From sequence record MT446392.1: 64,000 nt of DNA; one strand, 5' to 3'. Shown piece after piece: positions 32,564 through 62,114 of the stretch. The translations under genes were made by a program, and so were the position numbers. Below the pieces are notes generated by a model. The model ran no database searches and was not told the origin of the DNA. It was given only the letters and a program-made list of their open reading frames with translations. The DNA comes from Escherichia virus TH15. Every line of letters begins with the position of its first letter. Position 1 is the first letter of the stretch.

Positions 32564-32586
32564 AGGGACCCTTCTGGTCCTTTTTA
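32564..32586 (+). terminator. putative terminator hairpin + U5
   Basis: GGGACC-cttct-GGTCCT followed by TTTTT. Confidence 0.5.
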
Positions 32587-32595
32587 GGAGATAAT

Positions 32596-33723
32596 ATGGC
32601 TTTTATTGTATCTATTGCAGGTTCAGCCTCAATGAAAATTGGCGATAGCGCCAACTATACCGCTACTGCATCAGGAGCAGCGGTGGAAGGAACTGTCACA
32701 TATGTATGGACTATTGATGGCGCCTCAAATCCAGAATCAACTAACGTTCTTCGTTATACGGGTACTGCTCCCGCGGGAAAGAAAATTTTAAAAGTAGTCG
32801 CGACTTCCACACCGGCTGAAGGTGAGCCTGAAGTAGCCGAAAATACTTTTGAAGTAAATGTATCTAATAAAACTATGAGTATTTCTTTAGCTTTGGACCC
32901 AGTTTCTGTATCTAAAGAAATTGGCCAATCTCAAGTTGTTACTGCTAACGTAACAGGTGCTCCTTCTGGAGCCACGATTGCTTATGTTTGGAAACGCAAT
33001 TCTAATGTAATCGCAGGTCAAACTGGTAAAACTATTACCGTAACCGAAGCAGCAGAAGCAAATTATACTTTGAACTGTGAAGTTACGGTTACTGCTCCTG
33101 AATATGATTCAGCTACTGCTACTAAAGGCGCGACGGTAACTTTTGCCAAGAAAACAATGTCAGGTGTTTCTGTTGTTTTAACACCGGAATCAATTAATGT
33201 TCCTAAAGATACACCAGCATCATTTAAGGCCGATGTAGTCGGTGCACCGAGTGAAGCATCCGGTGTTTATACATGGAAAAAAGATGGTTCTCCTGTTGAA
33301 GGTTCAACTTCCACTTTGACAATTGATACAAGTACCGAAGGTTCTCAAGTCATTGAAGTTTCGGTTGTTGTTTCTGCGCCCGATTATAAATCAGTAACAG
33401 TGACAACAACAGGTAATGTTACTATAACAGCTAAAGTTGCGCCGGAACCAGAAGGGGAACTTCCATATATTCATCCATTACCAGTTCGCAATTCAGCATA
33501 TATTTGGGCCGGTTGGTGGGTTATGGATGAGATTCAGAAGATGACTCTTGCTGGTAAAGACTGGAAAACCGATGAACCTGATAGTAATTATTATCTTCAT
33601 CGATACACTCTTGCCAAAATGCTTAATGATTATCCAGAGGTTGATGTACAAGAATCTCGCAATGGTCGAATTATTCATCGCACCGCGCTTGACGCTGGTA
33701 TTATCTACGACTACGTATATTAA
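32596..33723 (+). CDS. hoc: highly immunogenic outer capsid protein Hoc
   Basis: 375-aa ORF (T4 Hoc 376 aa); Ig-like repeats and conserved C-terminal capsid-binding region (GWWVMDEIQK...EVDVQESRNG). Confidence 0.85.
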   Translation: MAFIVSIAGSASMKIGDSANYTATASGAAVEGTVTYVWTIDGASNPESTNVLRYTGTAPAGKKILKVVATSTPAEGEPEVAENTFEVNVSNKTMSISLALDPVSVSKEIGQSQVVTANVTGAPSGATIAYVWKRNSNVIAGQTGKTITVTEAAEANYTLNCEVTVTAPEYDSATATKGATVTFAKKTMSGVSVVLTPESINVPKDTPASFKADVVGAPSEASGVYTWKKDGSPVEGSTSTLTIDTSTEGSQVIEVSVVVSAPDYKSVTVTTTGNVTITAKVAPEPEGELPYIHPLPVRNSAYIWAGWWVMDEIQKMTLAGKDWKTDEPDSNYYLHRYTLAKMLNDYPEVDVQESRNGRIIHRTALDAGIIYDYVY

Positions 33724-33752
33724 AAAAGAAAGGGCCTTGCGGCCCTTTTTTA
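33724..33752. terminator. bidirectional terminator (GGGCCUUGCGGCCC)
   Basis: Hairpin flanked by A6 and T6 between convergent hoc and hoc-like gene. Confidence 0.8.
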
Positions 33753-33753
33753 T

Positions 33754-34620
33754 TTACCAAACTAAATCCTTTTTACCTAAAATATATCCGTTTCTTGATT
33801 CCTGTACTTCAATATCAGGATATTTCTCAAGCATTTCTGCTATCTTAGCAAGCTCACATTTGTATTTAAATCTATCGTGCATAGGATTCTTATGCCATTC
33901 AAAGCCTTCTATCAAAGCCTCTAAAATCTCATCATGAACCCACCAGCCAATCCACATATAAACTTTATTTCGACCACCACTTAAATGACTAAGATGCTCA
34001 TACTGATTAAGGTCATGAACATAGATATCTTTACATTCTATAGTAGTAGAAGGAGGAACTAATTGAATGTCAATTAGAGCTGTTGTTTCTTTATATCCAC
34101 CATGACTAAATGCTGTAGTAGATAATGTATAAGTTCCGTAATAAGAATCATCTTCAACAGTAAGACTAAATTGTTCATCAGTTCCTATTTGAATGCCATT
34201 ACGAAGCCAAACACACTTTCTATGAACCCATGTTGGCTCTACTATACACTGAGGAGCAAAATGGACCTGGCCGCCTATAGGAACTTCTATATAAAGTCTA
34301 GTTTTAAACTGTATTGTCGGTTCTCTAAGTTCTTCGCCTATTTCTAATTGAATTCTATTAGTTCTATACATCTCCCCTGTTGACTTAACGCCTAAAAGAG
34401 CGTAATATTCTCCTTCGGCTGGATAACCGACATCCCATAAATTTAGAGTCCATGGGTTTTCAGAATCCAACTTAGGTATAAGAACTACATCTTTATACCA
34501 TGCTACGTGAATATCATCAGGATGTATATTTACAGGCAAAGAAATCTCGGATAAATCAAATGTAATATCTTGACCTATCTGAGCATAATGAGGACCATGC
34601 ATAACGGCATATAATTTCAT
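33754..34620 (-). CDS. Hoc paralog: novel N-terminal region fused to Hoc-type C-terminal capsid-binding domain
   Basis: 288-aa ORF; C-terminal ~65 aa share YMWIGWWVHDEI...YPDIEVQESRNGYI with Hoc; RBS GGAGA overlaps stop of upstream collagen-like gene. Confidence 0.7.
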   Translation of the reverse strand: MKLYAVMHGPHYAQIGQDITFDLSEISLPVNIHPDDIHVAWYKDVVLIPKLDSENPWTLNLWDVGYPAEGEYYALLGVKSTGEMYRTNRIQLEIGEELREPTIQFKTRLYIEVPIGGQVHFAPQCIVEPTWVHRKCVWLRNGIQIGTDEQFSLTVEDDSYYGTYTLSTTAFSHGGYKETTALIDIQLVPPSTTIECKDIYVHDLNQYEHLSHLSGGRNKVYMWIGWWVHDEILEALIEGFEWHKNPMHDRFKYKCELAKIAEMLEKYPDIEVQESRNGYILGKKDLVW

Positions 34621-34629
34621 GGGTTCTCC

Positions 34630-35949
34630 TTAAGATGCAAATATTATAGGTATACGCCCATGATTATTATTTTTAATAACCTGAATATAGATGTCAGAAT
34701 CAACATAATCATTTAAAGACCCGGTTGGAAGCATTTTTAAAGTATACCAAAAACCTGTGGCTTTATCTATAATTTCTGCAGTTGAACCTTCTCGACACTT
34801 ATCAAAAGAAATGTTATCCCATGTTACCCATGAGCTAGTCAGGTTTAAATTATTATCTGACTTGTTTTCTAAGCCAACCGCGTCATAGTTTGTGGTTCTA
34901 CGATAAGAATATGAAGCTGGCAAAGAGTCATTAAATCTTTTGACACTGATATCAAATGTGTTTTTAGTTGTGACTTTATATTTCATAGAAATATTAGTAT
35001 CAGCTAGTTTGACCGTGGCTTCAGCATTAGGAGAAGACATTGAATTAAAGCTTAAAATAATTTCCCAATATTTCTTAGGTTCAAATGGTTTAAGCTTGTC
35101 ATATAATTCCTCTAATTGAGATTCTGTCAAGCTGCCAATATCAAGAGCAGGGCCTTGAGGGCCTTGTGCACCGTCTATACCATTTTTACCAGGGTCGCCT
35201 TTTAATCCTTGCAGGCCTTGTGGTCCTTGAGGGCCATCTGTTCCAGCAGGACCTTGGTCACCTTTATCTCCTTTATCACCCTTGTCTCCTTTTGCGCCAG
35301 CCGATGCCATTATGGCCCAATCGTCATTTGACGGCAACGGCGGAATACCGGTATGAGTCGTAAGACTAAAATAGGTAGCTCCTTGGTACGCTACGGCGTC
35401 ATTTGGTACATACTCAATAGATATATCATATTCACCTTTCCATATTAATCCTGTTGCTCCTGCGGGGCCCGGGTCGCCTTTAGGACCATCTAGACCATTT
35501 TTACCCGGGTCGCCTTTAGGACCTTGAATACCTTGAATACCTTGAGGGCCGGTAGCCCCATCAATGCCGTTAGTTCCATCAGCCCCTTTAGGACCTTGAA
35601 TACCAGGTGCACCATCCATCCCGTGTACACCTGCCAGGCCTTGGGGACCTTGTAGACCATCTATTCCAGCAGGACCTTGTGGTCCTGGGTCACCTTTTAA
35701 TCCTTGTGGGCCTTGAATGCCCTGGATACCTTGGTCGCCTTTTGGGCCTACTGCGCCATCAGAAATTCCTATAAATGTCTTTGCTTCTTCTGAAGTAGCT
35801 TTAGTTAAAAATTCTAAACTCCAATCGGTAGTTGAACTTGTCGTAATAAGGTCTTCTACTTGTTTTGTATTACCTGCCTCTGGATTTCTAATGGTTTTGC
35901 CAGAAAAGTTACCTCTACCATCATGCCCAAACAATCTTTCGTCAGCCAT
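34630..35949 (-). CDS. collagen-like repeat protein with C-terminal globular domain
   Basis: 439-aa ORF; two uninterrupted Gly-X-Y runs (33 and 16 triplets); late promoter and RBS upstream. Confidence 0.75.
35149..35298 (-). repeat. collagen Gly-X-Y coding repeat, block 2 (16 triplets incl. GDKGDKGDK)
   Basis: Same periodicity; encodes [19 protein letters not shown]... Confidence 0.8.
35449..35748 (-). repeat. collagen Gly-X-Y coding repeat, block 1 (33 triplets)
   Basis: Periodic GGN-NNN-NNN codons visible as CCNNNNNNN periodicity on + strand. Confidence 0.8.
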
Positions 35950-35984
35950 TGTATCTTCTCCAATTTATTTGAATAACACAATTG

Positions 35985-35992
35985 TATTTATA
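35985..35992 (-). promoter_or_regulatory. late promoter TATAAATA for collagen-like/Hoc-like operon
   Basis: Exact TATAAATA on - strand about 35 nt upstream of the collagen-like ATG. Confidence 0.5.
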
Positions 35993-36041
35993 CTGTTTAC
36001 AAGTTAAAAATTCTATGTTAGGATAGCTTCACTAACTCAAC

Positions 36042-37640: not shown

Positions 37641-37668
37641 AAAAAAGGGCCGCAAGGCCCTTATTCTT
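37641..37668. terminator. bidirectional terminator (GGGCCGCAAGGCCC)
   Basis: Hairpin flanked by A-run and T-run between convergent rnlB and the gene 24 paralog. Confidence 0.7.
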
Positions 37669-38944
37669 TTTCCAGTGGTGGAAGTTTAACACCAAGATAA
37701 GAACTCAATTGGCTTTGGTTAGCCATCTTATCCATATCAGCCCCATCAATAATGCGAGCTTCTTTATCGTCTTTAGCAACGGTATAAGGGTTCGCAGTCA
37801 GTGCATAACGAGCTAACAGTGCAACTGTAGGCTGTAAACTTTCAGGGTCAACGATAACCTTGAATTCCCCAACCGAGGTGTCACCCTCATCATCAACTTC
37901 ACTAAGACCTTCCGTATAAGGCGCATAATACAAAGATGCGACCGTCTGACCTTCACCCATATCGGCATTTACGCCAACAATAACATAATCGCATGGGCTA
38001 TTCATATCTGCATAAAGCGGCAAACCGTTCTTCAGAACGCCATAGGCCAATTCATCCTGGTCGTCCTTTTTCTCAACCCAACCAGAAGCTGCTAAAATAG
38101 CTGCACACCGGGAAGAGGCAACTGCATATGTACCAGCGAACGAAGTCTGACGTTGAACTGCGGAATTCATTTCGCACATATAATAATACAGGGTTCGAGC
38201 CCGGTCTTGCGCATTATCATATCTCGGGTCGGTAAGATTCAATACACCTTTTTCAGAAACACCTTGTACCTTGAAGCGGGAACTAACAGTAATAAGGGAT
38301 TGCAGTACGTCCTTATTAATTTCCTCTGCCATTTGAATGCCAAGGATATTATCAATAAAATCTGTTGCGTCGAAACCATTTGCTTCCAGGTCCTGAGCAA
38401 GCTCAACAGTTAAAGAGGTTTTCAGTTTTCTGGATTTGACTTCGGTCTGCCATTTATCGATACGGAAACCGGCTTCAGCAATTTCAGGATGACCCTGTTC
38501 AAATTTATTAGTGAAAGCTGCATCCGACATCATTCTTATATGGCCAGCAGCAATGGCTTCAGAAATAACTTCACCCAAATCAGTTTCAAGGGTCCCAGCA
38601 AAAGGAGAAGCTTCCAAAACTTTGAATACAACGCTTTCGAACTGGAACATATCGCCGACTGCATAAGCTTCGTCTTTATTTGTAAATTCTGGGATATTCT
38701 TACGCTCGAACATGCCAATCTGGCCTGCAAATGTTGCTCCACCAAGATATGTCATTTTATCATCTGGGTTCAGAACACGAACACCATACAACGCTGCAAC
38801 AGGCTGGGTAGTTTTCTGTTCGGCAACGAGTGCTTTAAAAATTCGTTTATTCGTAGCCTGGGTATAAGAAAGCAAATTAGGACGGGCGACCTGGTTGGCC
38901 GCCGTTAATGTTGATTCGTGAATTAGTGCGTTAATCTTTTGCAT
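37661..38944 (-). CDS. capsid vertex protein paralog (gp24-like, divergent copy)
   Basis: 427-aa ORF, roughly 55% identical by eye to the adjacent gp24; starts immediately after gp24 stop (TAAATG) with GAGG RBS inside the upstream gene. Confidence 0.8.
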   Translation of the reverse strand: MQKINALIHESTLTAANQVARPNLLSYTQATNKRIFKALVAEQKTTQPVAALYGVRVLNPDDKMTYLGGATFAGQIGMFERKNIPEFTNKDEAYAVGDMFQFESVVFKVLEASPFAGTLETDLGEVISEAIAAGHIRMMSDAAFTNKFEQGHPEIAEAGFRIDKWQTEVKSRKLKTSLTVELAQDLEANGFDATDFIDNILGIQMAEEINKDVLQSLITVSSRFKVQGVSEKGVLNLTDPRYDNAQDRARTLYYYMCEMNSAVQRQTSFAGTYAVASSRCAAILAASGWVEKKDDQDELAYGVLKNGLPLYADMNSPCDYVIVGVNADMGEGQTVASLYYAPYTEGLSEVDDEGDTSVGEFKVIVDPESLQPTVALLARYALTANPYTVAKDDKEARIIDGADMDKMANQSQLSSYLGVKLPPLEKE

Positions 38945-40225
38945 TTACGCCTCATAAATGATTGGCGGAAGTTTAACACCGAGCAGATAAGACATATTGC
39001 TCTGGCCGGCCATTAAATCCATATTAGTTGCATCGATAATACGAGCTTCTTTGTCGTCTTTAGCAACGGTGTAAGGGTTAGCTGAAAGTGCATATCGAAC
39101 CATCAGGGAGATAGATGGCTGCAAGCTGTCTGGGTCCACAATGACCTTAAATGCACCTACGTGTTCTTCATCATCTAAGTCCAGGCCTTCGGTATAAGGA
39201 GCATAGAAGATTGAGCCTACGACTTCGTTTCCGCCATAATTTTCTTTAACGCCAACGGTTACATAATCTAATGGACTGTTAACATCACAGAATACAGGAA
39301 GACCATTAATCAAATAACCATACGCGGTTTCCGGGAGCCATTGTTCATCTTCAGGTTTATGTTTCAACCAACCGGAACCGGCGAGCATCGCGGCCACACG
39401 ACTTGAGGCAACAACGAATGTACCAGAGTAAGATGTAGTTTTCTGAATTTCAGAGTTCATTTCGCACACCAGTTCGTACAGTTTACGTGCGCCTTCTGGA
39501 GCTGAATCATATGTCAAATCGATGAAACCTTTATCAGAAACGCCAGTGACTTTATAACGCTTGGAAACGGTAATCAGAGACTGAAGAACATCTTTGTTAA
39601 TTTCATCTGCCATAGTAGTTGCAAGCAGGTCTTCCAGGAAAGCAGGAGCATTAAAACCGTTTGCTTCCATATCCTGTGCAAGTTCAACAGTCAGTGCAGT
39701 TTTCAATTTACGGGATTTAACAGGAGCATTCCATTTATTAACCTGGAATACAGCGTTACTAATTTCAACATCACCAGCTTCAAATTTCTCGGTGTGTGCA
39801 GCATCAGGAACTAAACGAATAGTCGATGCAATAAGACCTTCTTGCAGAACATCAGATAATACTGTTTCTGTAGTCGTTGCAAATGGATTATCCACCAGAG
39901 CTTTGTAAACGATATTTTGATATTTTACATATTCGCCTTTAGCAACAGGTTGAGTAGCTGTAGCTAATTCTGGAATAGTTGTACGGTCTTTAGAACCGAC
40001 TTCACCACCATAAGTAGCACCAGTCTGGAAACTGAATTCATTATCAGGAGTAAGATATTTAACACCGTACAGCGCAGCAACAGGCTGGTTAGTACGTTGT
40101 TCAGCGATGATATCGCGGTAAATCAATTTAGTTGTAGCGCGGGTCAAAGCAACAAGATTCGGGCGGCCTAATGAGTTGCTGGATGTAGTAGTTGACTCGC
40201 GCAGCAGTTCGTTAATCTTTGCCAT
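38945..40225 (-). CDS. 24: capsid vertex protein gp24
   Basis: 426-aa ORF (T4 gp24 427 aa); N-terminus MAKINELLRESTTT matches T4 gp24 as recalled. Confidence 0.9.
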   Translation of the reverse strand: MAKINELLRESTTTSSNSLGRPNLVALTRATTKLIYRDIIAEQRTNQPVAALYGVKYLTPDNEFSFQTGATYGGEVGSKDRTTIPELATATQPVAKGEYVKYQNIVYKALVDNPFATTTETVLSDVLQEGLIASTIRLVPDAAHTEKFEAGDVEISNAVFQVNKWNAPVKSRKLKTALTVELAQDMEANGFNAPAFLEDLLATTMADEINKDVLQSLITVSKRYKVTGVSDKGFIDLTYDSAPEGARKLYELVCEMNSEIQKTTSYSGTFVVASSRVAAMLAGSGWLKHKPEDEQWLPETAYGYLINGLPVFCDVNSPLDYVTVGVKENYGGNEVVGSIFYAPYTEGLDLDDEEHVGAFKVIVDPDSLQPSISLMVRYALSANPYTVAKDDKEARIIDATNMDLMAGQSNMSYLLGVKLPPIIYEA

Positions 40226-40318: not shown

Positions 40319-40978
40319 ATGCATTATTTAATTTACAAAATAACTAACTTGATAAATCATAAAATTTATATTGGGGCGCACGCCACAGAAAACGTGTATG
40401 ACTCCTATATGGGGTCGGGAGTCAACATTGTCAAATCCATCAAAAAACATGGTATTAAGAACTTTAAAAAAGAAATTTTGTTTGTTTTTGATACTTCATA
40501 TGAAATGTATGAGAAAGAAGCTGAACTTGTTAATGAACAATTTGTGCTTAGAGCTGATACATACAATGCAGCTATTGGCGGCAAGGGAAATCCAATTATT
40601 GTTAAACTACAAGACCCTTCATACAGAAAAATGATTTCAGAAAAGACAAAAGCAGGTATGACCGTAGAAGTAAAGCGGAAAATATCAATAGCAAAAACAG
40701 GAGTCAAACAGTCACAAGAGCTTATTGATAAACGTACGGCGGGTGTCAAAAAATATTTAGAAACACACCAGCATCACAACAAAAATAAACCAATAAGCGA
40801 TAGCCACCGCAAAGCAATTTCAGAAAAATTAAAAGGGATTAAAAAACTTATTAAGATTTCAATCAAAGGTAAGACTTTTGATAACCCAGATTTTGCTGCT
40901 GAACATTTTGGCGTTTCTCCAAAAACAATACGCAATTGGATAAATTCAGATAAACACCCAGACTGCTTCAAACAATAA
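40319..40978 (+). CDS. segD: GIY-YIG homing endonuclease, SegD-like
   Basis: 219-aa ORF; [25 protein letters not shown] motif, repeated K..G...S.E linker modules, C-terminal HTH-like; between genes 23 and 24 like T4 segD. Confidence 0.78.
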
Positions 40979-41016: not shown

Positions 41017-42576
41017 TTAAATTCCCTTAACATATACACGTCTAAAGTAACCGTTCAAGCCGAGGCTGTTAACGATGTCCGGCATACCGTTTTGAATACG
41101 CTTGGTCGGAGCCTGAGCTGCCGGGTCAGCGAACGGGTTAATACCGATACCGTAACGGGTTTTGAAGCCCATAACCGGCTGGAAGTTTTTCGGGTCAGAG
41201 CCACGCAGCGGTGTCAGTGCAACATATGGTGCGTAGTAGATACCAGCATCCATTTCGTTAGCACCTTTGTAACCGATGGTGAAGTAATCTGCGCGAGCAT
41301 ACTGGTCGATATAGACACGGTATTTGCCACCCAGAACACCAGCGAACACAGCTTTAGTGGTGTCAACGTTGAAACCTTTACCCAGACCCTGAGCAGCATA
41401 AGATACGGAGGTATCAACTGCAGCCAGTACGTTAACTACGTTACGGGAAGCGATGATGAAGTTACCTGCACCACGACCGGTCTGACGAGCGATTTCAGCA
41501 GCTTCTTTGTCAATCTGGAACAGTAAAGCTTTGAAGCTTTCACCAGCCCAACGAGCGCCACGGATATCAATCGGGTCCTGGAAGTCAAACACACCAGCTT
41601 TAGCGCCAACGGTGTTGGTCATACCAGATTTACCAACCTGTGCGGAGTAGTTAATCCAATCGATAACTTCGCGGTTGATTTCCAGCATAATTTCAGTAGC
41701 CAGAATACCACTCAATTCAGCATCAGCGTCCATACCGTGAACAGCGCGCAGGTCCTGTGCCAGTTCGATAGAGTAGCTTGCTTTCAGCTGACGGGATTTA
41801 GCTTCGATAACTTGTTTATCGATGCGGAAGCCCATTTCGTTCCACGGGTTATCCTGAGAACCGTTGAAACCTTCCTGCAGTTCGGCGATAGAGGTAGCCA
41901 TACCTTCAGCGATTTCTGCCAGTTTACCAGCTTCGAGCAGTTTGGTAACTTCAGCGTCAAGTTTAGCAGCATCAGTAGCGGCGGCATCAACGGTTACAGC
42001 TTCAACAGCCTGGTAGTGTGCGGAACCGGTTGCTTCGAAGAAGTGAGAATAAATTTTACCAACGGTAAGAACTTTGCTTGCAGCCAGAGCTTCGAAAGCT
42101 TCAGCAGCGCCCTGACCGGAGAACATAGCGTTCGGAGCATACATCGGGTGGAAAGCTTCTTTAGCACCAGCAGCTACAGGGTCTTTACCGTAAACTGCAC
42201 GCAGGGCAAATACCTGGCCAGTCGGGTTGTTCAGAGGCTGGACGCCACAAATATCAAACGCAATCAGATGCGGGATAGCACGACGAACCATACCCATAAC
42301 TGCCGGCCCAATCTGAGTTACTGCACCAGAGGTCTGGCCAGCAGCGATATTGGTAGCATCATAACCATGGTCACCACCGATTTCAGCTTCGGTCAGGAAA
42401 GAACCAAATGCTTCGGAGATTTTTTCGTCACGGTATTCTGGAGCGGTCAGGATATCTTGTTCCTGGTTTTCAAAGATTTTAGCGATGATAGCTTGTTTAG
42501 AAGCACCAACGATTTCAGGAAGAGCTTCATTTTCCAGCAGAGCGGACCATTTTTGTACTAATGCATTCTTTTTCAT
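41017..42576 (-). CDS. 23: major capsid protein
   Basis: 519-aa ORF (T4 gp23 521 aa); synteny and sequence resemblance as recalled. Confidence 0.92.
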   Translation of the reverse strand: MKKNALVQKWSALLENEALPEIVGASKQAIIAKIFENQEQDILTAPEYRDEKISEAFGSFLTEAEIGGDHGYDATNIAAGQTSGAVTQIGPAVMGMVRRAIPHLIAFDICGVQPLNNPTGQVFALRAVYGKDPVAAGAKEAFHPMYAPNAMFSGQGAAEAFEALAASKVLTVGKIYSHFFEATGSAHYQAVEAVTVDAAATDAAKLDAEVTKLLEAGKLAEIAEGMATSIAELQEGFNGSQDNPWNEMGFRIDKQVIEAKSRQLKASYSIELAQDLRAVHGMDADAELSGILATEIMLEINREVIDWINYSAQVGKSGMTNTVGAKAGVFDFQDPIDIRGARWAGESFKALLFQIDKEAAEIARQTGRGAGNFIIASRNVVNVLAAVDTSVSYAAQGLGKGFNVDTTKAVFAGVLGGKYRVYIDQYARADYFTIGYKGANEMDAGIYYAPYVALTPLRGSDPKNFQPVMGFKTRYGIGINPFADPAAQAPTKRIQNGMPDIVNSLGLNGYFRRVYVKGI

Positions 42577-61109: not shown

Positions 61110-62114
61110 TTAGAATTCAAAAATAATATTAACTTCTTCTGTCTGGTCCATTGCACGGATAATCGGCGGACGGTTTTCCATGTAAATCATTTCCCCAGAA
61201 TGACGGTCCAAATCAATCGCATCATAGTATTCTTTGATTGCTTTGATATTTGGGTCATTAGGGTGAACTTTTACTTCCAATGGGTTAGCAATAATCGACA
61301 GCTGACGGAAACCTTTGTTACCTGGTAAACTAAATTCCGGGAAGTAAATGGAATCCATGAATGCTTTAAATCGAATCGTATAACCTTTAATTCGATAAAT
61401 CAATCCATAATCATTTTGCTGCCAGCTGATATTGTCTGCATATCCCCAACGAACAGGGTCTTCCTCAATTTCTTCCGGCCATGGAACAACGATATATTCG
61501 TTTGTGCATCGGTTGATAGACACATCCGGTGGAATCTCATACAAATATTCCCACAGATAACCATCGCCCATATCAACTCTTCCTTCGGTATCACCTGTAC
61601 CTGCGGGGGCACGGGTTGAGTTAAATTCTGCAGTCCAGCGACCACCGAGTTTTAAGCATTCTTCTTTATTGATAATTGAATAAATGGAGCAAGTACCAAC
61701 ATCCGGAACATCAACACAACGATAAACCATCCAACCTTTACCAACATCTGTTCGGTTATATGGTGCGCTGTTAGCTACAACAATTTCACCGACTTGGAAG
61801 TTCAACGGATTAGGATATCTTATATCACCCCAGTCTTTGCGAGGGACAACACAGTCAAGCATTGATTTGTAAACCTTAACGGCGCCCATCATATTTGTCC
61901 ATGTATCTTCAACACCTTGCGCTGTATCAACAGGATAAGGAGGGGCGAACCCCGGGTCATTCTCATTCGATGCCCAGGGTTCAGCGCGACCGAACGTCAC
62001 ATACATAGTGTTTTCGTCCGGTTCGTTGCCAATCATTTTATAGAAATTATACATTTTTTCCGTTCGAAATTTGGAGGTAATTATCGAACGGTAAACTACA
62101 GTTGAATTATTCAT
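61110..62114 (-). CDS. 8: baseplate wedge protein
   Basis: 334-aa ORF, same length as T4 gp8. Confidence 0.88.
   Translation of the reverse strand: MNNSTVVYRSIITSKFRTEKMYNFYKMIGNEPDENTMYVTFGRAEPWASNENDPGFAPPYPVDTAQGVEDTWTNMMGAVKVYKSMLDCVVPRKDWGDIRYPNPLNFQVGEIVVANSAPYNRTDVGKGWMVYRCVDVPDVGTCSIYSIINKEECLKLGGRWTAEFNSTRAPAGTGDTEGRVDMGDGYLWEYLYEIPPDVSINRCTNEYIVVPWPEEIEEDPVRWGYADNISWQQNDYGLIYRIKGYTIRFKAFMDSIYFPEFSLPGNKGFRQLSIIANPLEVKVHPNDPNIKAIKEYYDAIDLDRHSGEMIYMENRPPIIRAMDQTEEVNIIFEF

What the first reader, a model, noticed from the sequence alone, without database searches (positions are those of the whole stretch)
33754..34620. Second Hoc-type gene: Hoc C-terminal capsid-binding motif on a different N-terminal body
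The last ~65 residues (YMWIGWWVHDEILEALIEGFEWH...YPDIEVQESRNGYILGK) align with the C-terminus of the canonical hoc gene in this window (YIWAGWWVMDEIQKMTLAGKDWK...YPEVDVQESRNGRIIHR). The N-terminal ~220 residues are unrelated in sequence and look beta-rich. Two proteins sharing one capsid-anchoring domain would compete for, or partition between, the same hexon sites. This looks like domain shuffling of a display module.
Basis: seen in the sequence. Interest (0 to 1): 0.65.

Follow-up and report, generated by a model that had tools for sequence, protein, structure and literature searches.

The report
Second, shorter Hoc capsid-decoration gene
This T4-like phage carries a second, shorter copy of the Hoc head-decoration gene, with two antibody-like domains on the usual capsid anchor; second Hoc genes are already annotated and published in related phages, so the finding is correct but ordinary.

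Summary
ORF 33754-34620 (-) encodes a 288-aa protein. Its C-terminal ~93 residues are homologous to the capsid-binding domain of the window's canonical Hoc (BLASTP E 6e-16) and of T4 Hoc (E 1.6e-12). A model of this domain matches only the solved T4 Hoc C-domain bound to gp23 (TM 0.72). Nearly all published gp23-contact residues are kept.

The N-terminal body is not a foreign fold. It is two Ig-like domains, and its best structural match is RB49 Hoc. The whole protein fits the PHROG "Hoc-like head decoration" profile (E 1e-43).

The gene is under strong purifying selection (dN/dS 0.095). It lies in a late-promoter operon behind a collagen-like gene.

This is a member of an old Hoc paralogue lineage, not a recent domain shuffle. 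Orthologues are already annotated as Hoc (ABTNLsp5 "Hoc I", JS10, IME08, CGG4-1, phage 65 "hoc-2"). Fokine et al. 2023 describe second short Hocs.

Competition with Hoc for the single site per hexamer is the likeliest mechanism, but it is untested.

One possibly new lead is the conserved pairing of a collagen-like gene with this Hoc2 type.

The parts
33754..34620 (-). hoc2: 288-aa Hoc paralogue of the 'Hoc2-A' type, including its stop codon
   Evidence: ORF listed. PHROG 1149 Hoc-like head decoration, E 1.3e-43. 84% identical to ABTNLsp5 'outer capsid protein Hoc I'. dN/dS 0.095 against that orthologue.
34333..34620 (-). Ig-like domain 1 (residues 1-96), distal from the capsid
   Evidence: AlphaFold model with overall pLDDT 88 and beta-sandwich strands. 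Foldseek best hit is RB49 Hoc 3shs, followed by tandem-Ig proteins. Conserved W41-Y42-K and D63-x-G-Y-P-A-x-G-x-Y motifs. dN/dS 0.047.
34036..34332 (-). Ig-like domain 2 (residues 97-195)
   Evidence: It is the most variable domain of the family, with mean pairwise identity 40%.
33757..34035 (-). Hoc C-terminal capsid-binding domain (residues 196-288)
   Evidence: BLASTP E 6e-16 against the window's Hoc. phmmer E 1.6e-12 against T4 Hoc. The domain model (pLDDT 91, pTM 0.81) matches only PDB 8t1x_X, the T4 Hoc C-domain on a gp23* capsomer: TM 0.72, rmsd 2.3 A, E 4e-6, with the next hit at E 1.6.
33973..34011 (-). Lineage-specific insertion (residues 204-216, NQYEHLSHLSGG-type) in the beta1-beta2 loop, just before the conserved Arg217 (= T4 Arg300)
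   Evidence: Alignment of C-domains. The segment has low pLDDT. It is present in the window, ABTNLsp5, IME08 and CGG4-1 Hoc2-A proteins and absent from FBB1, Cronus, phage 65 and canonical Hocs.
34626..34631 (-). Shine-Dalgarno AAGGAG of hoc2, overlapping the TAA stop of the upstream collagen-like gene
   Evidence: Sequence read.
34630..35949 (-). Collagen-like fibre gene (439 aa), co-transcribed upstream of hoc2. It has an N-terminal ~64-aa module ([10 protein letters not shown]...), two Gly-X-Y blocks around a CBM5/12-like insert, and a C-terminal ~175-aa globular domain
   Evidence: Pfam Collagen E 3e-26. PHROG 5073 E 1.4e-56. The gene pair is conserved in other phages.
35985..35992 (-). 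T4-type late promoter motif TATAAATA, 36 nt upstream of the collagen-like gene's ATG
   Evidence: There are 19 exact motifs in the window against 4.6 expected, and most lie upstream of structural genes on the minus strand.
33729..33748 (.). G+C-rich hairpin flanked by A-run and T-run. It reads as a bidirectional intrinsic terminator shared by the convergent hoc and hoc2 genes
32596..33723 (+). Canonical hoc (375 aa; 3 Ig-like domains plus C-domain)
   Evidence: phmmer against T4 Hoc E 5e-117 over the full length. PHROG 1149 E 2.5e-109.
41551..41607 (-). gp23 segment equivalent to T4 gp23 Gly326-Arg344, the published Hoc docking patch. It is 18/19 identical to T4, with Asp336 and Arg344 kept
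   Evidence: Alignment to T4 gp23. The patch is defined in PMC10385173.

Best explanation
The gene encodes a second, shorter head-decoration protein of the Hoc family. It has two Ig-like domains carried on a Hoc-type C-terminal capsid-binding domain.

It is transcribed late, from a TATAAATA promoter, as the second gene of a two-gene operon behind a collagen-like fibre gene.

After head expansion, its C-domain most likely docks into the centre of gp23* hexamers in the way T4 Hoc does, using the same aromatic and ESRNG-loop contacts. Each hexamer offers one such site. Hoc and Hoc2 would therefore be mutually exclusive at any given hexamer, and the virion would carry a mixture of long (3-Ig) and short (2-Ig) acidic fibres. 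The ratio would be set by expression and affinity. This would broaden the set of surfaces the capsid can weakly adhere to.

Shown here: homology, fold, conserved contact residues, a conserved gp23 patch, purifying selection, and the late-operon sequence signals.

Inferred: presence in the virion, the binding site, competition with Hoc, and the adhesive role.
For: - C-domain homology: E 6e-16 to the window's Hoc and 1.6e-12 to T4 Hoc.
- Fold: the C-domain model uniquely matches capsid-bound T4 Hoc, 8t1x_X, at TM 0.72.
- Contact residues: the residues that PMC10385173 lists as gp23 contacts or structural keys are conserved. T4 Y293/H295/R300/Y304/W306/W309/W310/D313/Q354/E355-S-R-N-G359/Y360 correspond to Y200/H202/R217/Y221/W223/W226/W227/D230/Q273/E274-S-R-N-G278/Y279. 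Only His299 is not kept.
- Docking site: the gp23 patch is 18/19 identical to T4.
- N-terminal body: two Ig-like domains, best PDB hit RB49 Hoc.
- Charge: pI 5.1, acidic like other Hocs.
- Selection: dN/dS 0.095 overall and below 0.2 in each domain.
- Expression signals: late promoter, overlapping stop/SD, and terminator.
- Annotation and literature: orthologues are annotated as Hoc in several genera. Second short Hocs are described in PMC10385173.
Against: - No experimental evidence was found that any second Hoc is in a virion or binds capsids.
- The C-domain is only about 36-42% identical to the canonical one.
- It carries a 10-13 residue insertion in the beta1-beta2 loop. In T4 that loop contacts gp23 Asp336.
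- It lacks T4's last ~10 residues.
- Affinity, orientation or site preference could therefore differ.
- Promoter and terminator calls are consensus matches only.
Confidence: 0.75

Rival explanations
1. Hoc2 is the capsid adaptor, or a partner, of the co-transcribed collagen-like protein. The collagen trimer's conserved N-terminal module would bind the conserved distal Ig domain of Hoc2. The pair would then form a two-component head fibre with an exchangeable distal tip.
For: - The two genes share one late operon, and the stop codon of the first overlaps the SD of the second.
- In 19 of 19 phage records that hold the collagen protein's C-domain, it lies directly upstream of a Hoc2-A gene on the same strand. 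These records span phages of Escherichia, Salmonella, Erwinia, Pantoea and Aeromonas, and sequence identity falls to 23-30%.
- The type of the collagen N-terminal module tracks the Hoc2 body type in all 10 phages inspected (7 A-A, 3 B-B). This holds even where the collagen C-domain was swapped, as in JS10 and VR5.
- The distal Ig1 of Hoc2 is more conserved than Ig2 (49.5 vs 40.4% mean identity; dN/dS 0.047 vs 0.17). In canonical Hoc, Ig1 is the most variable domain among the close relatives compared (ABTNLsp5, IME08, VR20), though not against T4-like or VR25.
- In the unrelated siphovirus AugustePiccard, a collagen protein of the same PHROG sits between a head-decoration gene and the major capsid gene.
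Against: - Adjacent genes co-vary through linkage alone.
- IME08 has Hoc2-A with its collagen gene about 1.5 kb away.
- MN01 has a Hoc2-A-like C-terminal part inside a 944-aa Hoc and no collagen gene.
- Second Hocs in Muldoon-type phages have no collagen partner.
- Collagen proteins with the same C-domain occur in phages that lack a Hoc C-domain.
- A trimeric fibre on a monomeric adaptor is geometrically awkward.
- No interaction was modelled or measured.
Confidence: 0.15
2. Hoc2 decorates a different or restricted set of capsid positions than Hoc, for example the vertex-proximal, less symmetric hexamers. The two proteins would then partition rather than compete.
For: - T4 Hoc already behaves differently on vertex-proximal hexamers (PMC10385173).
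- Hoc2 has a lineage-specific insertion exactly in the loop that contacts gp23 subunit A, and a truncated C-terminal tail.
- Its C-domain forms a separate deep clade.
Against: - All core contact residues are conserved, so the default expectation is the same site.
- The idea that the second gp24 paralogue provides a special site is not supported. Phages with two gp24 genes and one Hoc exist (VR20, L030-L034), and so do phages with one gp24 and two Hocs (L009, L014, L042).
Confidence: 0.07
3. The ORF is a decaying duplicate or an unexpressed remnant of hoc with no role in the virion.
For: No Pfam hit. No named entry for the exact protein.
Against: - dN/dS 0.095 over dS about 1.1.
- 43 invariant columns across 15 family members down to 40% identity.
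- Intact start codon, SD, late promoter and terminator.
- Confident fold prediction.
Confidence: 0.02

Closest known systems
T4 Hoc (highly immunogenic outer capsid protein; PDB 5vf3_Z, 8t1x_X)
   Same: It has a homologous C-terminal capsid-binding domain, with the published gp23-contact residues and the ESRNG loop conserved. It also has an N-terminal string of Ig-like domains, an acidic pI, late-gene sequence signals, and a location in the 24-hoc-inh-uvsW region.
   Different: - Two Ig-like domains instead of three.
- The Ig domains have no pairwise-detectable similarity to T4's.
- The C-domain is only about 38-42% identical.
- A 10-13 residue insertion sits before Arg217.
- About 10 residues are missing from the C-terminal tail.
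- A Cys196/Cys255 pair is absent from T4-type Hocs.
- It is encoded in addition to a canonical hoc, on the opposite strand.
Salmonella phage vB_SalM_ABTNLsp5 'outer capsid protein Hoc I' (QPI13309.1). The same family is in Dhakavirus JS10, IME08, dhaeg and CLB_P2, in Gelderlandvirus CGG4-1, and in Aeromonas phage 65 'hoc-2'
   Same: These are orthologues: 84% identity for ABTNLsp5 and 30-43% for the others, over the full length and with the same three-domain layout. In nearly all of them the position is the same: convergent with hoc and immediately downstream of a collagen-like gene. IME08 is the exception, with its collagen-like gene about 1.5 kb away.
   Different: Here the cassette sits in a Gaprivervirus-like backbone. 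The 23/24 region is 96-97% identical to VR7 and VR25, and the relatives in that genus carry other alleles at this locus.
VR7 gp197 / VR25 gp247 'Hoc-like head decoration' (Gaprivervirus)
   Same: It occupies the same locus and has the same length (287 aa) and the same operon with a collagen-like gene. The C-domain is 48% identical over the BLAST alignment, with the shared YKC(D/E)L signature.
   Different: The N-terminal body shows no detectable similarity. The collagen partner has a different, shorter N-terminal module and a different C-domain. It is a different allele (type B) of the same module.
Second short Hoc of Serratia phage Muldoon (314 aa), and the Hoc-like pair of Enterobacter phage PG7, as described by Fokine et al. 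2023 (PMC10385173)
   Same: The concept and architecture are the same: an additional, shorter protein with Ig-like domains on the Hoc capsid-binding domain, proposed to functionalise the capsid surface.
   Different: Muldoon's short Hoc has a canonical-clade C-domain, 61% identical to the window's Hoc and 38% to its Hoc2. It lies in tandem on the same strand as the giant Hoc and has no collagen-like partner.
T5 pb10 decoration protein
   Same: It is an analogous solution: a decoration protein that binds at the centre of major-capsid-protein hexamers (abstract of PMC5292684). That it carries an exposed Ig-like domain rests on my own knowledge; the paper was not read here.
   Different: No sequence relationship was tested or claimed here. 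It is a different phage family with a single gene.

Membership tests
Hoc (T4-type highly immunogenic outer capsid protein) family | C-terminal capsid-binding domain homologous to T4 Hoc residues 281-376 | tested here: met
   BLASTP E 6e-16. phmmer against PDB T4 Hoc E 1.6e-12. The model's only significant PDB match is 8t1x_X, TM 0.72, rmsd 2.3 A.
Hoc (T4-type highly immunogenic outer capsid protein) family | Conserved capsid-contact and structural residues (T4 Y293, H295, R300, W309, W310, D313, and loop E355-S-R-N-G359) | tested here: met
   All are present as Y200, H202, R217, W226, W227, D230 and E274-G278. Y304, W306, Q354 and Y360 also have equivalents. Only H299 is not conserved.
Hoc (T4-type highly immunogenic outer capsid protein) family | N-terminal linear string of Ig-like domains | tested here: met
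   The AlphaFold model (pLDDT 88) shows two beta-sandwich domains. The best Foldseek hit is RB49 Hoc Ig domains, 3shs, E 1.6e-11. The PHROG 1149 match covers residues 5-286. There are two domains, not three.
Hoc (T4-type highly immunogenic outer capsid protein) family | Acidic protein (pI about 4-5) | tested here: met
   pI 5.13, net charge -16 at pH 7. The criterion comes from PMC10385173.
Hoc (T4-type highly immunogenic outer capsid protein) family | Late expression as a virion component | tested here: inconclusive
   An exact TATAAATA late-promoter motif heads the two-gene operon, and a terminator follows. These are sequence signals only. There are no transcript or proteome data.
Hoc (T4-type highly immunogenic outer capsid protein) family | Binds the centre of expanded gp23* hexamers, one copy per hexamer; dispensable for assembly | not testable with these tools
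   Only indirect support is available. The gp23 docking patch is 18/19 identical to T4. The close relative VR20 lacks the gene, which is consistent with dispensability.
Hoc2-A subfamily (ABTNLsp5 'Hoc I' / JS10 / CGG4-1 / phage 65 hoc-2 type), as defined here | About 200-290 aa; Ig1 motifs WYK and D-x-G-Y-P-A-x-G-x-Y; C-domain signature (F/Y)KY(K/P)C(E/D); usually directly downstream of a collagen-like gene | tested here: met
   Alignment A1 has 43 invariant columns. All full-length hits to the body in 1.84e9 representative proteins carry the Hoc C-domain. The gene pair is documented.
Pfam Ig families (Ig_2, Ig_3, I-set, PKD) | A score above the Pfam gathering threshold | tested here: not met
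   There is no Pfam family at E <= 1 for Hoc2. The Ig assignment rests on structure prediction and the PHROG profile.

The most novel reading that the evidence does not exclude
The collagen-like gene and hoc2 form a conserved two-component head-fibre module. Hoc2 would anchor to hexamer centres, and its conserved distal Ig domain would hold the N-terminal module of a collagen-like trimer. The trimer's distal globular domain is swapped between phages. On this reading the Hoc anchor would display a long, exchangeable fibre rather than just Ig domains, and the 'tail fiber protein' annotation of PHROG 5073 collagen proteins would be wrong for these phages.
Probability: 0.17. Interest if true: 0.6.

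Novelty: already known. Interest (0 to 1): 0.25.

Why it matters
The stated finding adds little. Second Hoc genes are annotated in several T4-like genera, and Fokine et al. 2023 pointed out second, shorter Hoc-like proteins on the same capsid-binding domain in Muldoon and PG7.

Some things remain open. Nobody appears to have shown how two Hocs share the roughly 155 single-occupancy hexamer sites. It is also unknown whether the tightly coupled collagen-like protein is a head fibre.

Both questions bear on how phage capsids adhere to mucus and cell surfaces. They also bear on T4-type display platforms, where two orthogonal or competing anchors would be useful. The locus is also a clear example of a surface-protein hot spot, with at least four alleles within one genus.

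Tried and rejected
1. Second gp24 paralogue as a special docking partner for Hoc2. Rejected. The numbers of gp24-like and Hoc-C genes do not co-vary across 45 loci.
2. Recent domain shuffling of a foreign N-terminal module. Rejected. The body is never found without the Hoc C-domain, and the C-domain is itself a deep paralogue.
3. Recent transfer of the cassette from ABTNLsp5. Rejected. Cassette identity (72-79% nt) is no higher than backbone identity to that phage.
4. Homologues of the collagen protein's C-terminal domain for structure prediction.
   - The word-indexed protein search returned nothing, and the exact protein is not in that collection.
   - A profile against PDB and a Pfam scan of six homologues gave only chance-level hits.
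   - The fold of that domain therefore remains unknown.
5. A third Hoc C-domain in the window. There is only a weak hit at 61680-61862 (E 0.003), taken as chance.
6. Literature.
   - The JS98 genome paper and Sathaliyawala et al. 2010 are not held.
   - Searches for 'Hoc1/Hoc2', for VR7 with Hoc, and for collagen with Hoc gave nothing on virion proteomics of second Hocs.
   - The PNJ-9 'variant Hoc' paper concerns a shortened canonical Hoc, not a second gene.
The Cys196-Cys255 distance and clashes of the loop insertion with gp23 could not be measured.

Full report
**What is there.** The window is from a T4-type phage. The reported ORF (33754-34620, minus strand, 288 aa) is real. Its neighbourhood is uvsW (-), inh (+), canonical hoc (32596-33723, +), the reported ORF (-), a collagen-like gene (34630-35949, -), two small ORFs, rnlB (+), two gp24 paralogues (-) and gp23 (-). 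The 23/24 region is 96-97% identical in DNA to Gaprivervirus phages VR7, VR25 and VR26. The exact protein exists in NCBI and Logan on a 171,591-bp contig.

**The observation.** BLASTP of the ORF against the window's Hoc aligns residues 217-286 with 298-365 at 42% identity, E 6e-16. No other segment is significant. Against all PDB sequences the only real hit is T4 Hoc, E 1.6e-12. The similarity is therefore real.

The homologous domain is about 93 residues (196-288). An upstream strand, Y200-V-H202, corresponds to T4 Y293-V-H295. It is separated from the rest by a 10-13 residue insertion found only in the clade made up of the window, ABTNLsp5, IME08 and CGG4-1.

**Is the anchor a capsid-binding domain?** Fokine et al. 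2023 (PMC10385173) solved the T4 Hoc C-domain on gp23* hexamers and listed the contacts:
- Y293, H295, R300, Y304, W306, W309, W310, Q354 and Y360.
- The loop E355-S-R-N-G359.
- The D313-R357 salt bridge.

Every one of these has its equivalent in the ORF: Y200, H202, R217, Y221, W223, W226, W227, Q273, Y279, E274-G278 and D230. Only His299 is lost.

An AlphaFold model of residues 191-288 (pLDDT 91, pTM 0.81) has exactly one significant match in the PDB. That match is 8t1x_X, the T4 Hoc C-domain bound to a capsomer (TM 0.72, rmsd 2.3 A, 38% identity). The next hit has E 1.6.

The docking patch on the partner, T4 gp23 G326-R344, is 18/19 identical in this phage's gp23, and D336 and R344 are kept.

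**The N-terminal body.** Pairwise that is true, and Pfam finds nothing. However:
- The PHROG 1149 'Hoc-like head decoration' profile matches residues 5-286 at E 1.3e-43.
- The full-length model (pLDDT 88) shows two beta-sandwich domains, roughly 1-96 and 97-195.
- The best PDB match is the Ig string of RB49 Hoc (3shs, E 1.6e-11), followed by many tandem-Ig proteins.

So this is the standard Hoc architecture with two Ig-like domains instead of three.

**A real, constrained gene.**
- Fifteen family members, down to 40% identity, share 43 invariant columns spread over all three domains.
- Against the ABTNLsp5 orthologue, dN/dS is 0.095. By domain it is 0.047 for Ig1, 0.17 for Ig2 and 0.084 for the C-domain, at dS about 1.
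- The protein is acidic, pI 5.1, as described for Hocs.

**Expression signals.**
- An exact T4 late-promoter motif, TATAAATA, lies at 35985-35992 (-), 36 nt before the collagen-like gene. The window has 19 such motifs against 4.6 expected.
- That gene's TAA stop overlaps the AAGGAG Shine-Dalgarno sequence of hoc2.
- A G+C-rich hairpin flanked by A- and T-runs (33729-33748) separates the convergent hoc and hoc2 genes.

The reading is one late operon: promoter, collagen-like gene, hoc2, terminator. These are sequence signals, not expression data.

**Shuffled module or old paralogue?** The evidence favours an old paralogue.
- A HMMER search of the 195-residue body against 1.84 billion representative proteins gave only 16 hits.
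- All nine other proteins that match over the full length (198-288 aa) also carry the Hoc C-domain.
- The remaining hits are giant Ig-repeat proteins that match single repeats only.
- In a tree of C-domains, Hoc2-type anchors group apart from the canonical anchors.
- Within one phage the two anchors are about 36% identical. Canonical anchors of different phages are 81-91% identical.

This is an old paralogue lineage, which I call Hoc2-A. It is not a recent fusion.

**The locus is a hot spot.** Identity to VR25 is about 95% up to 32618 and again from 35993, which is right at the late promoter. In between, hoc, hoc2 and the collagen gene are all replaced or diverged. Within Gaprivervirus I saw four states:
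- hoc alone (VR20).
- hoc plus a type-B short Hoc plus a type-B collagen gene (VR25, VR26, VR5, VR7).
- hoc plus a 944-aa Hoc (MN01).
- The window's state: hoc plus Hoc2-A plus a type-A collagen gene.

**Already known.** Orthologues and analogues are annotated as Hoc:
- ABTNLsp5 'outer capsid protein Hoc I', 84% identical.
- JS10 and IME08, each with two 'Hoc' genes.
- CGG4-1, with three.
- Aeromonas phage 65 'hoc-2'.
- VR25 gp247, 'similar to VR7 gp197 and T4 Hoc'.

Fokine et al. 2023 state that Muldoon encodes a second, shorter Hoc (314 aa, two Ig-like domains plus the capsid-binding domain) and that PG7 encodes two Hoc-like proteins. They propose that the anchor is used to functionalise the capsid.

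In the phage collection, 1150 records match this protein at 1187 places. At most about 3% of Hoc-bearing records therefore show more than one match. The feature is uncommon but documented.

**Mechanism.** T4 Hoc binds one copy per hexamer and contacts all six subunits. Hoc2 keeps the contact set and the gp23 patch is conserved. The most likely outcome is mutually exclusive occupation of hexamer centres by Hoc and Hoc2, giving a mixed coat of 3-Ig and 2-Ig fibres. Partitioning is possible, for example onto the less symmetric vertex-proximal hexamers. The loop insertion and the truncated tail make it conceivable, but nothing here supports it directly. The idea that the second gp24 paralogue offers a special site fails the co-occurrence test.

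**A lead beyond the finding.** The collagen-like gene and hoc2 look like a unit.
- tblastn with the collagen protein's C-terminal domain finds 19 phage records. In all 19 it ends within 100 nt upstream of a Hoc2-A gene on the same strand. The hosts are Escherichia, Salmonella, Erwinia, Pantoea and Aeromonas.
- The collagen proteins have a conserved N-terminal module. Its type tracks the Hoc2 body type in all ten phages inspected.
- That tracking holds even where the distal C-domain was exchanged. JS10 has an A-type N-terminus and a B-type C-domain with Hoc2-A. VR5 differs from VR25 only in the C-domain.
- In Hoc2-A the distal Ig1 is better conserved than Ig2.
- In the unrelated siphovirus AugustePiccard, a collagen protein of the same PHROG lies between a head-decoration gene and the major capsid gene.

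This suggests a head-associated fibre that may use Hoc2 as its adaptor. There are clear caveats:
- Linkage alone could explain the co-variation.
- IME08 separates the two genes.
- Other second Hocs have no collagen partner.
- The same collagen C-domain occurs in phages without Hoc.

I rate this reading at roughly one in six.

**Verdict.** The feature is a correctly recognised but already known kind of gene. Interest is low to moderate. Its residual value lies in the untested sharing of sites between two Hocs and in the collagen-Hoc2 pairing.

Noticed in passing
window 34630-35949 (-), with promoter 35985-35992; also L001, L002, L004, L006, L008, L012, L013, L049: A collagen-like 'tail fiber' gene (PHROG 5073) forms a late operon with hoc2. 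In 19 of 19 phage records holding its C-domain, it lies directly upstream of a Hoc2-A gene. Its N-terminal module type tracks the Hoc2 body type even where its distal domain was swapped. It may be a head fibre rather than a tail fibre.
   Followed up: partly
window 32618-35993: Identity to the closest relative VR25 drops from about 95% to nearly undetectable (only short ~70% patches) across hoc, hoc2 and the collagen gene. It resumes exactly at the late promoter. Gapriverviruses show at least four different gene contents at this locus (VR20, VR25/VR7, MN01 and this window), so it is a surface-protein hot spot.
   Followed up: partly
Hoc2 residues C196 and C255 (window ~34033-34035 and ~33856-33858, minus strand); alignment: Two cysteines in the Hoc C-domain occur together or are absent together. 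All Hoc2-type and VR25/Muldoon-type anchors have both (15 of 22 aligned). T4-type anchors and phage 65's 264-aa Hoc have neither. Cronus is the one exception. This may be a disulfide or a packed pair. The distance could not be measured.
   Followed up: no
window 37661-38944 (-) and 38945-40225 (-): Two tandem gp24 (vertex protein) paralogues, 55% identical to each other, as in VR25, IME08 and CGG4-1. Their presence does not correlate with the number of Hoc genes.
   Followed up: partly
window 40319-40978 (+): A 219-aa ORF between gp23 and gp24 with a SegE-type GIY-YIG domain (Pfam E 1.5e-5, just above the cut-off) and a weak C-terminal HTH. It is probably a homing endonuclease. VR25 has only a 93-aa ORF at this position.
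   Followed up: no
window 32566-32585 (+), between inh and hoc: The hairpin GGGACC-CTTCT-GGTCC followed by TTTTT sits 10 nt before the hoc Shine-Dalgarno sequence. It could attenuate or stabilise the inh-hoc transcript. No exact late-promoter motif was seen directly upstream of hoc.
   Followed up: no
L048 1594-4399 (Escherichia phage AugustePiccard, Drexlerviridae): The 'putative head outer capsid protein' (PHROG 9703, head decoration) contains GDS and DxxH motifs typical of SGNH/GDSL hydrolases. It is followed by a collagen repeat protein whose C-domain is 52% identical to that of VR25's collagen protein. This echoes the GDSL-Hoc fusion reported for phage PG7.
   Followed up: no
L050 3006-5840 (phage MN01) and L006 6874-9708 (CGG4-1): These are 944-aa Hoc-like proteins. 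Their C-terminal ~280 residues resemble Hoc2-A at about 30% identity. Their C-domain groups with Hoc2-type anchors rather than canonical ones.
   Followed up: no
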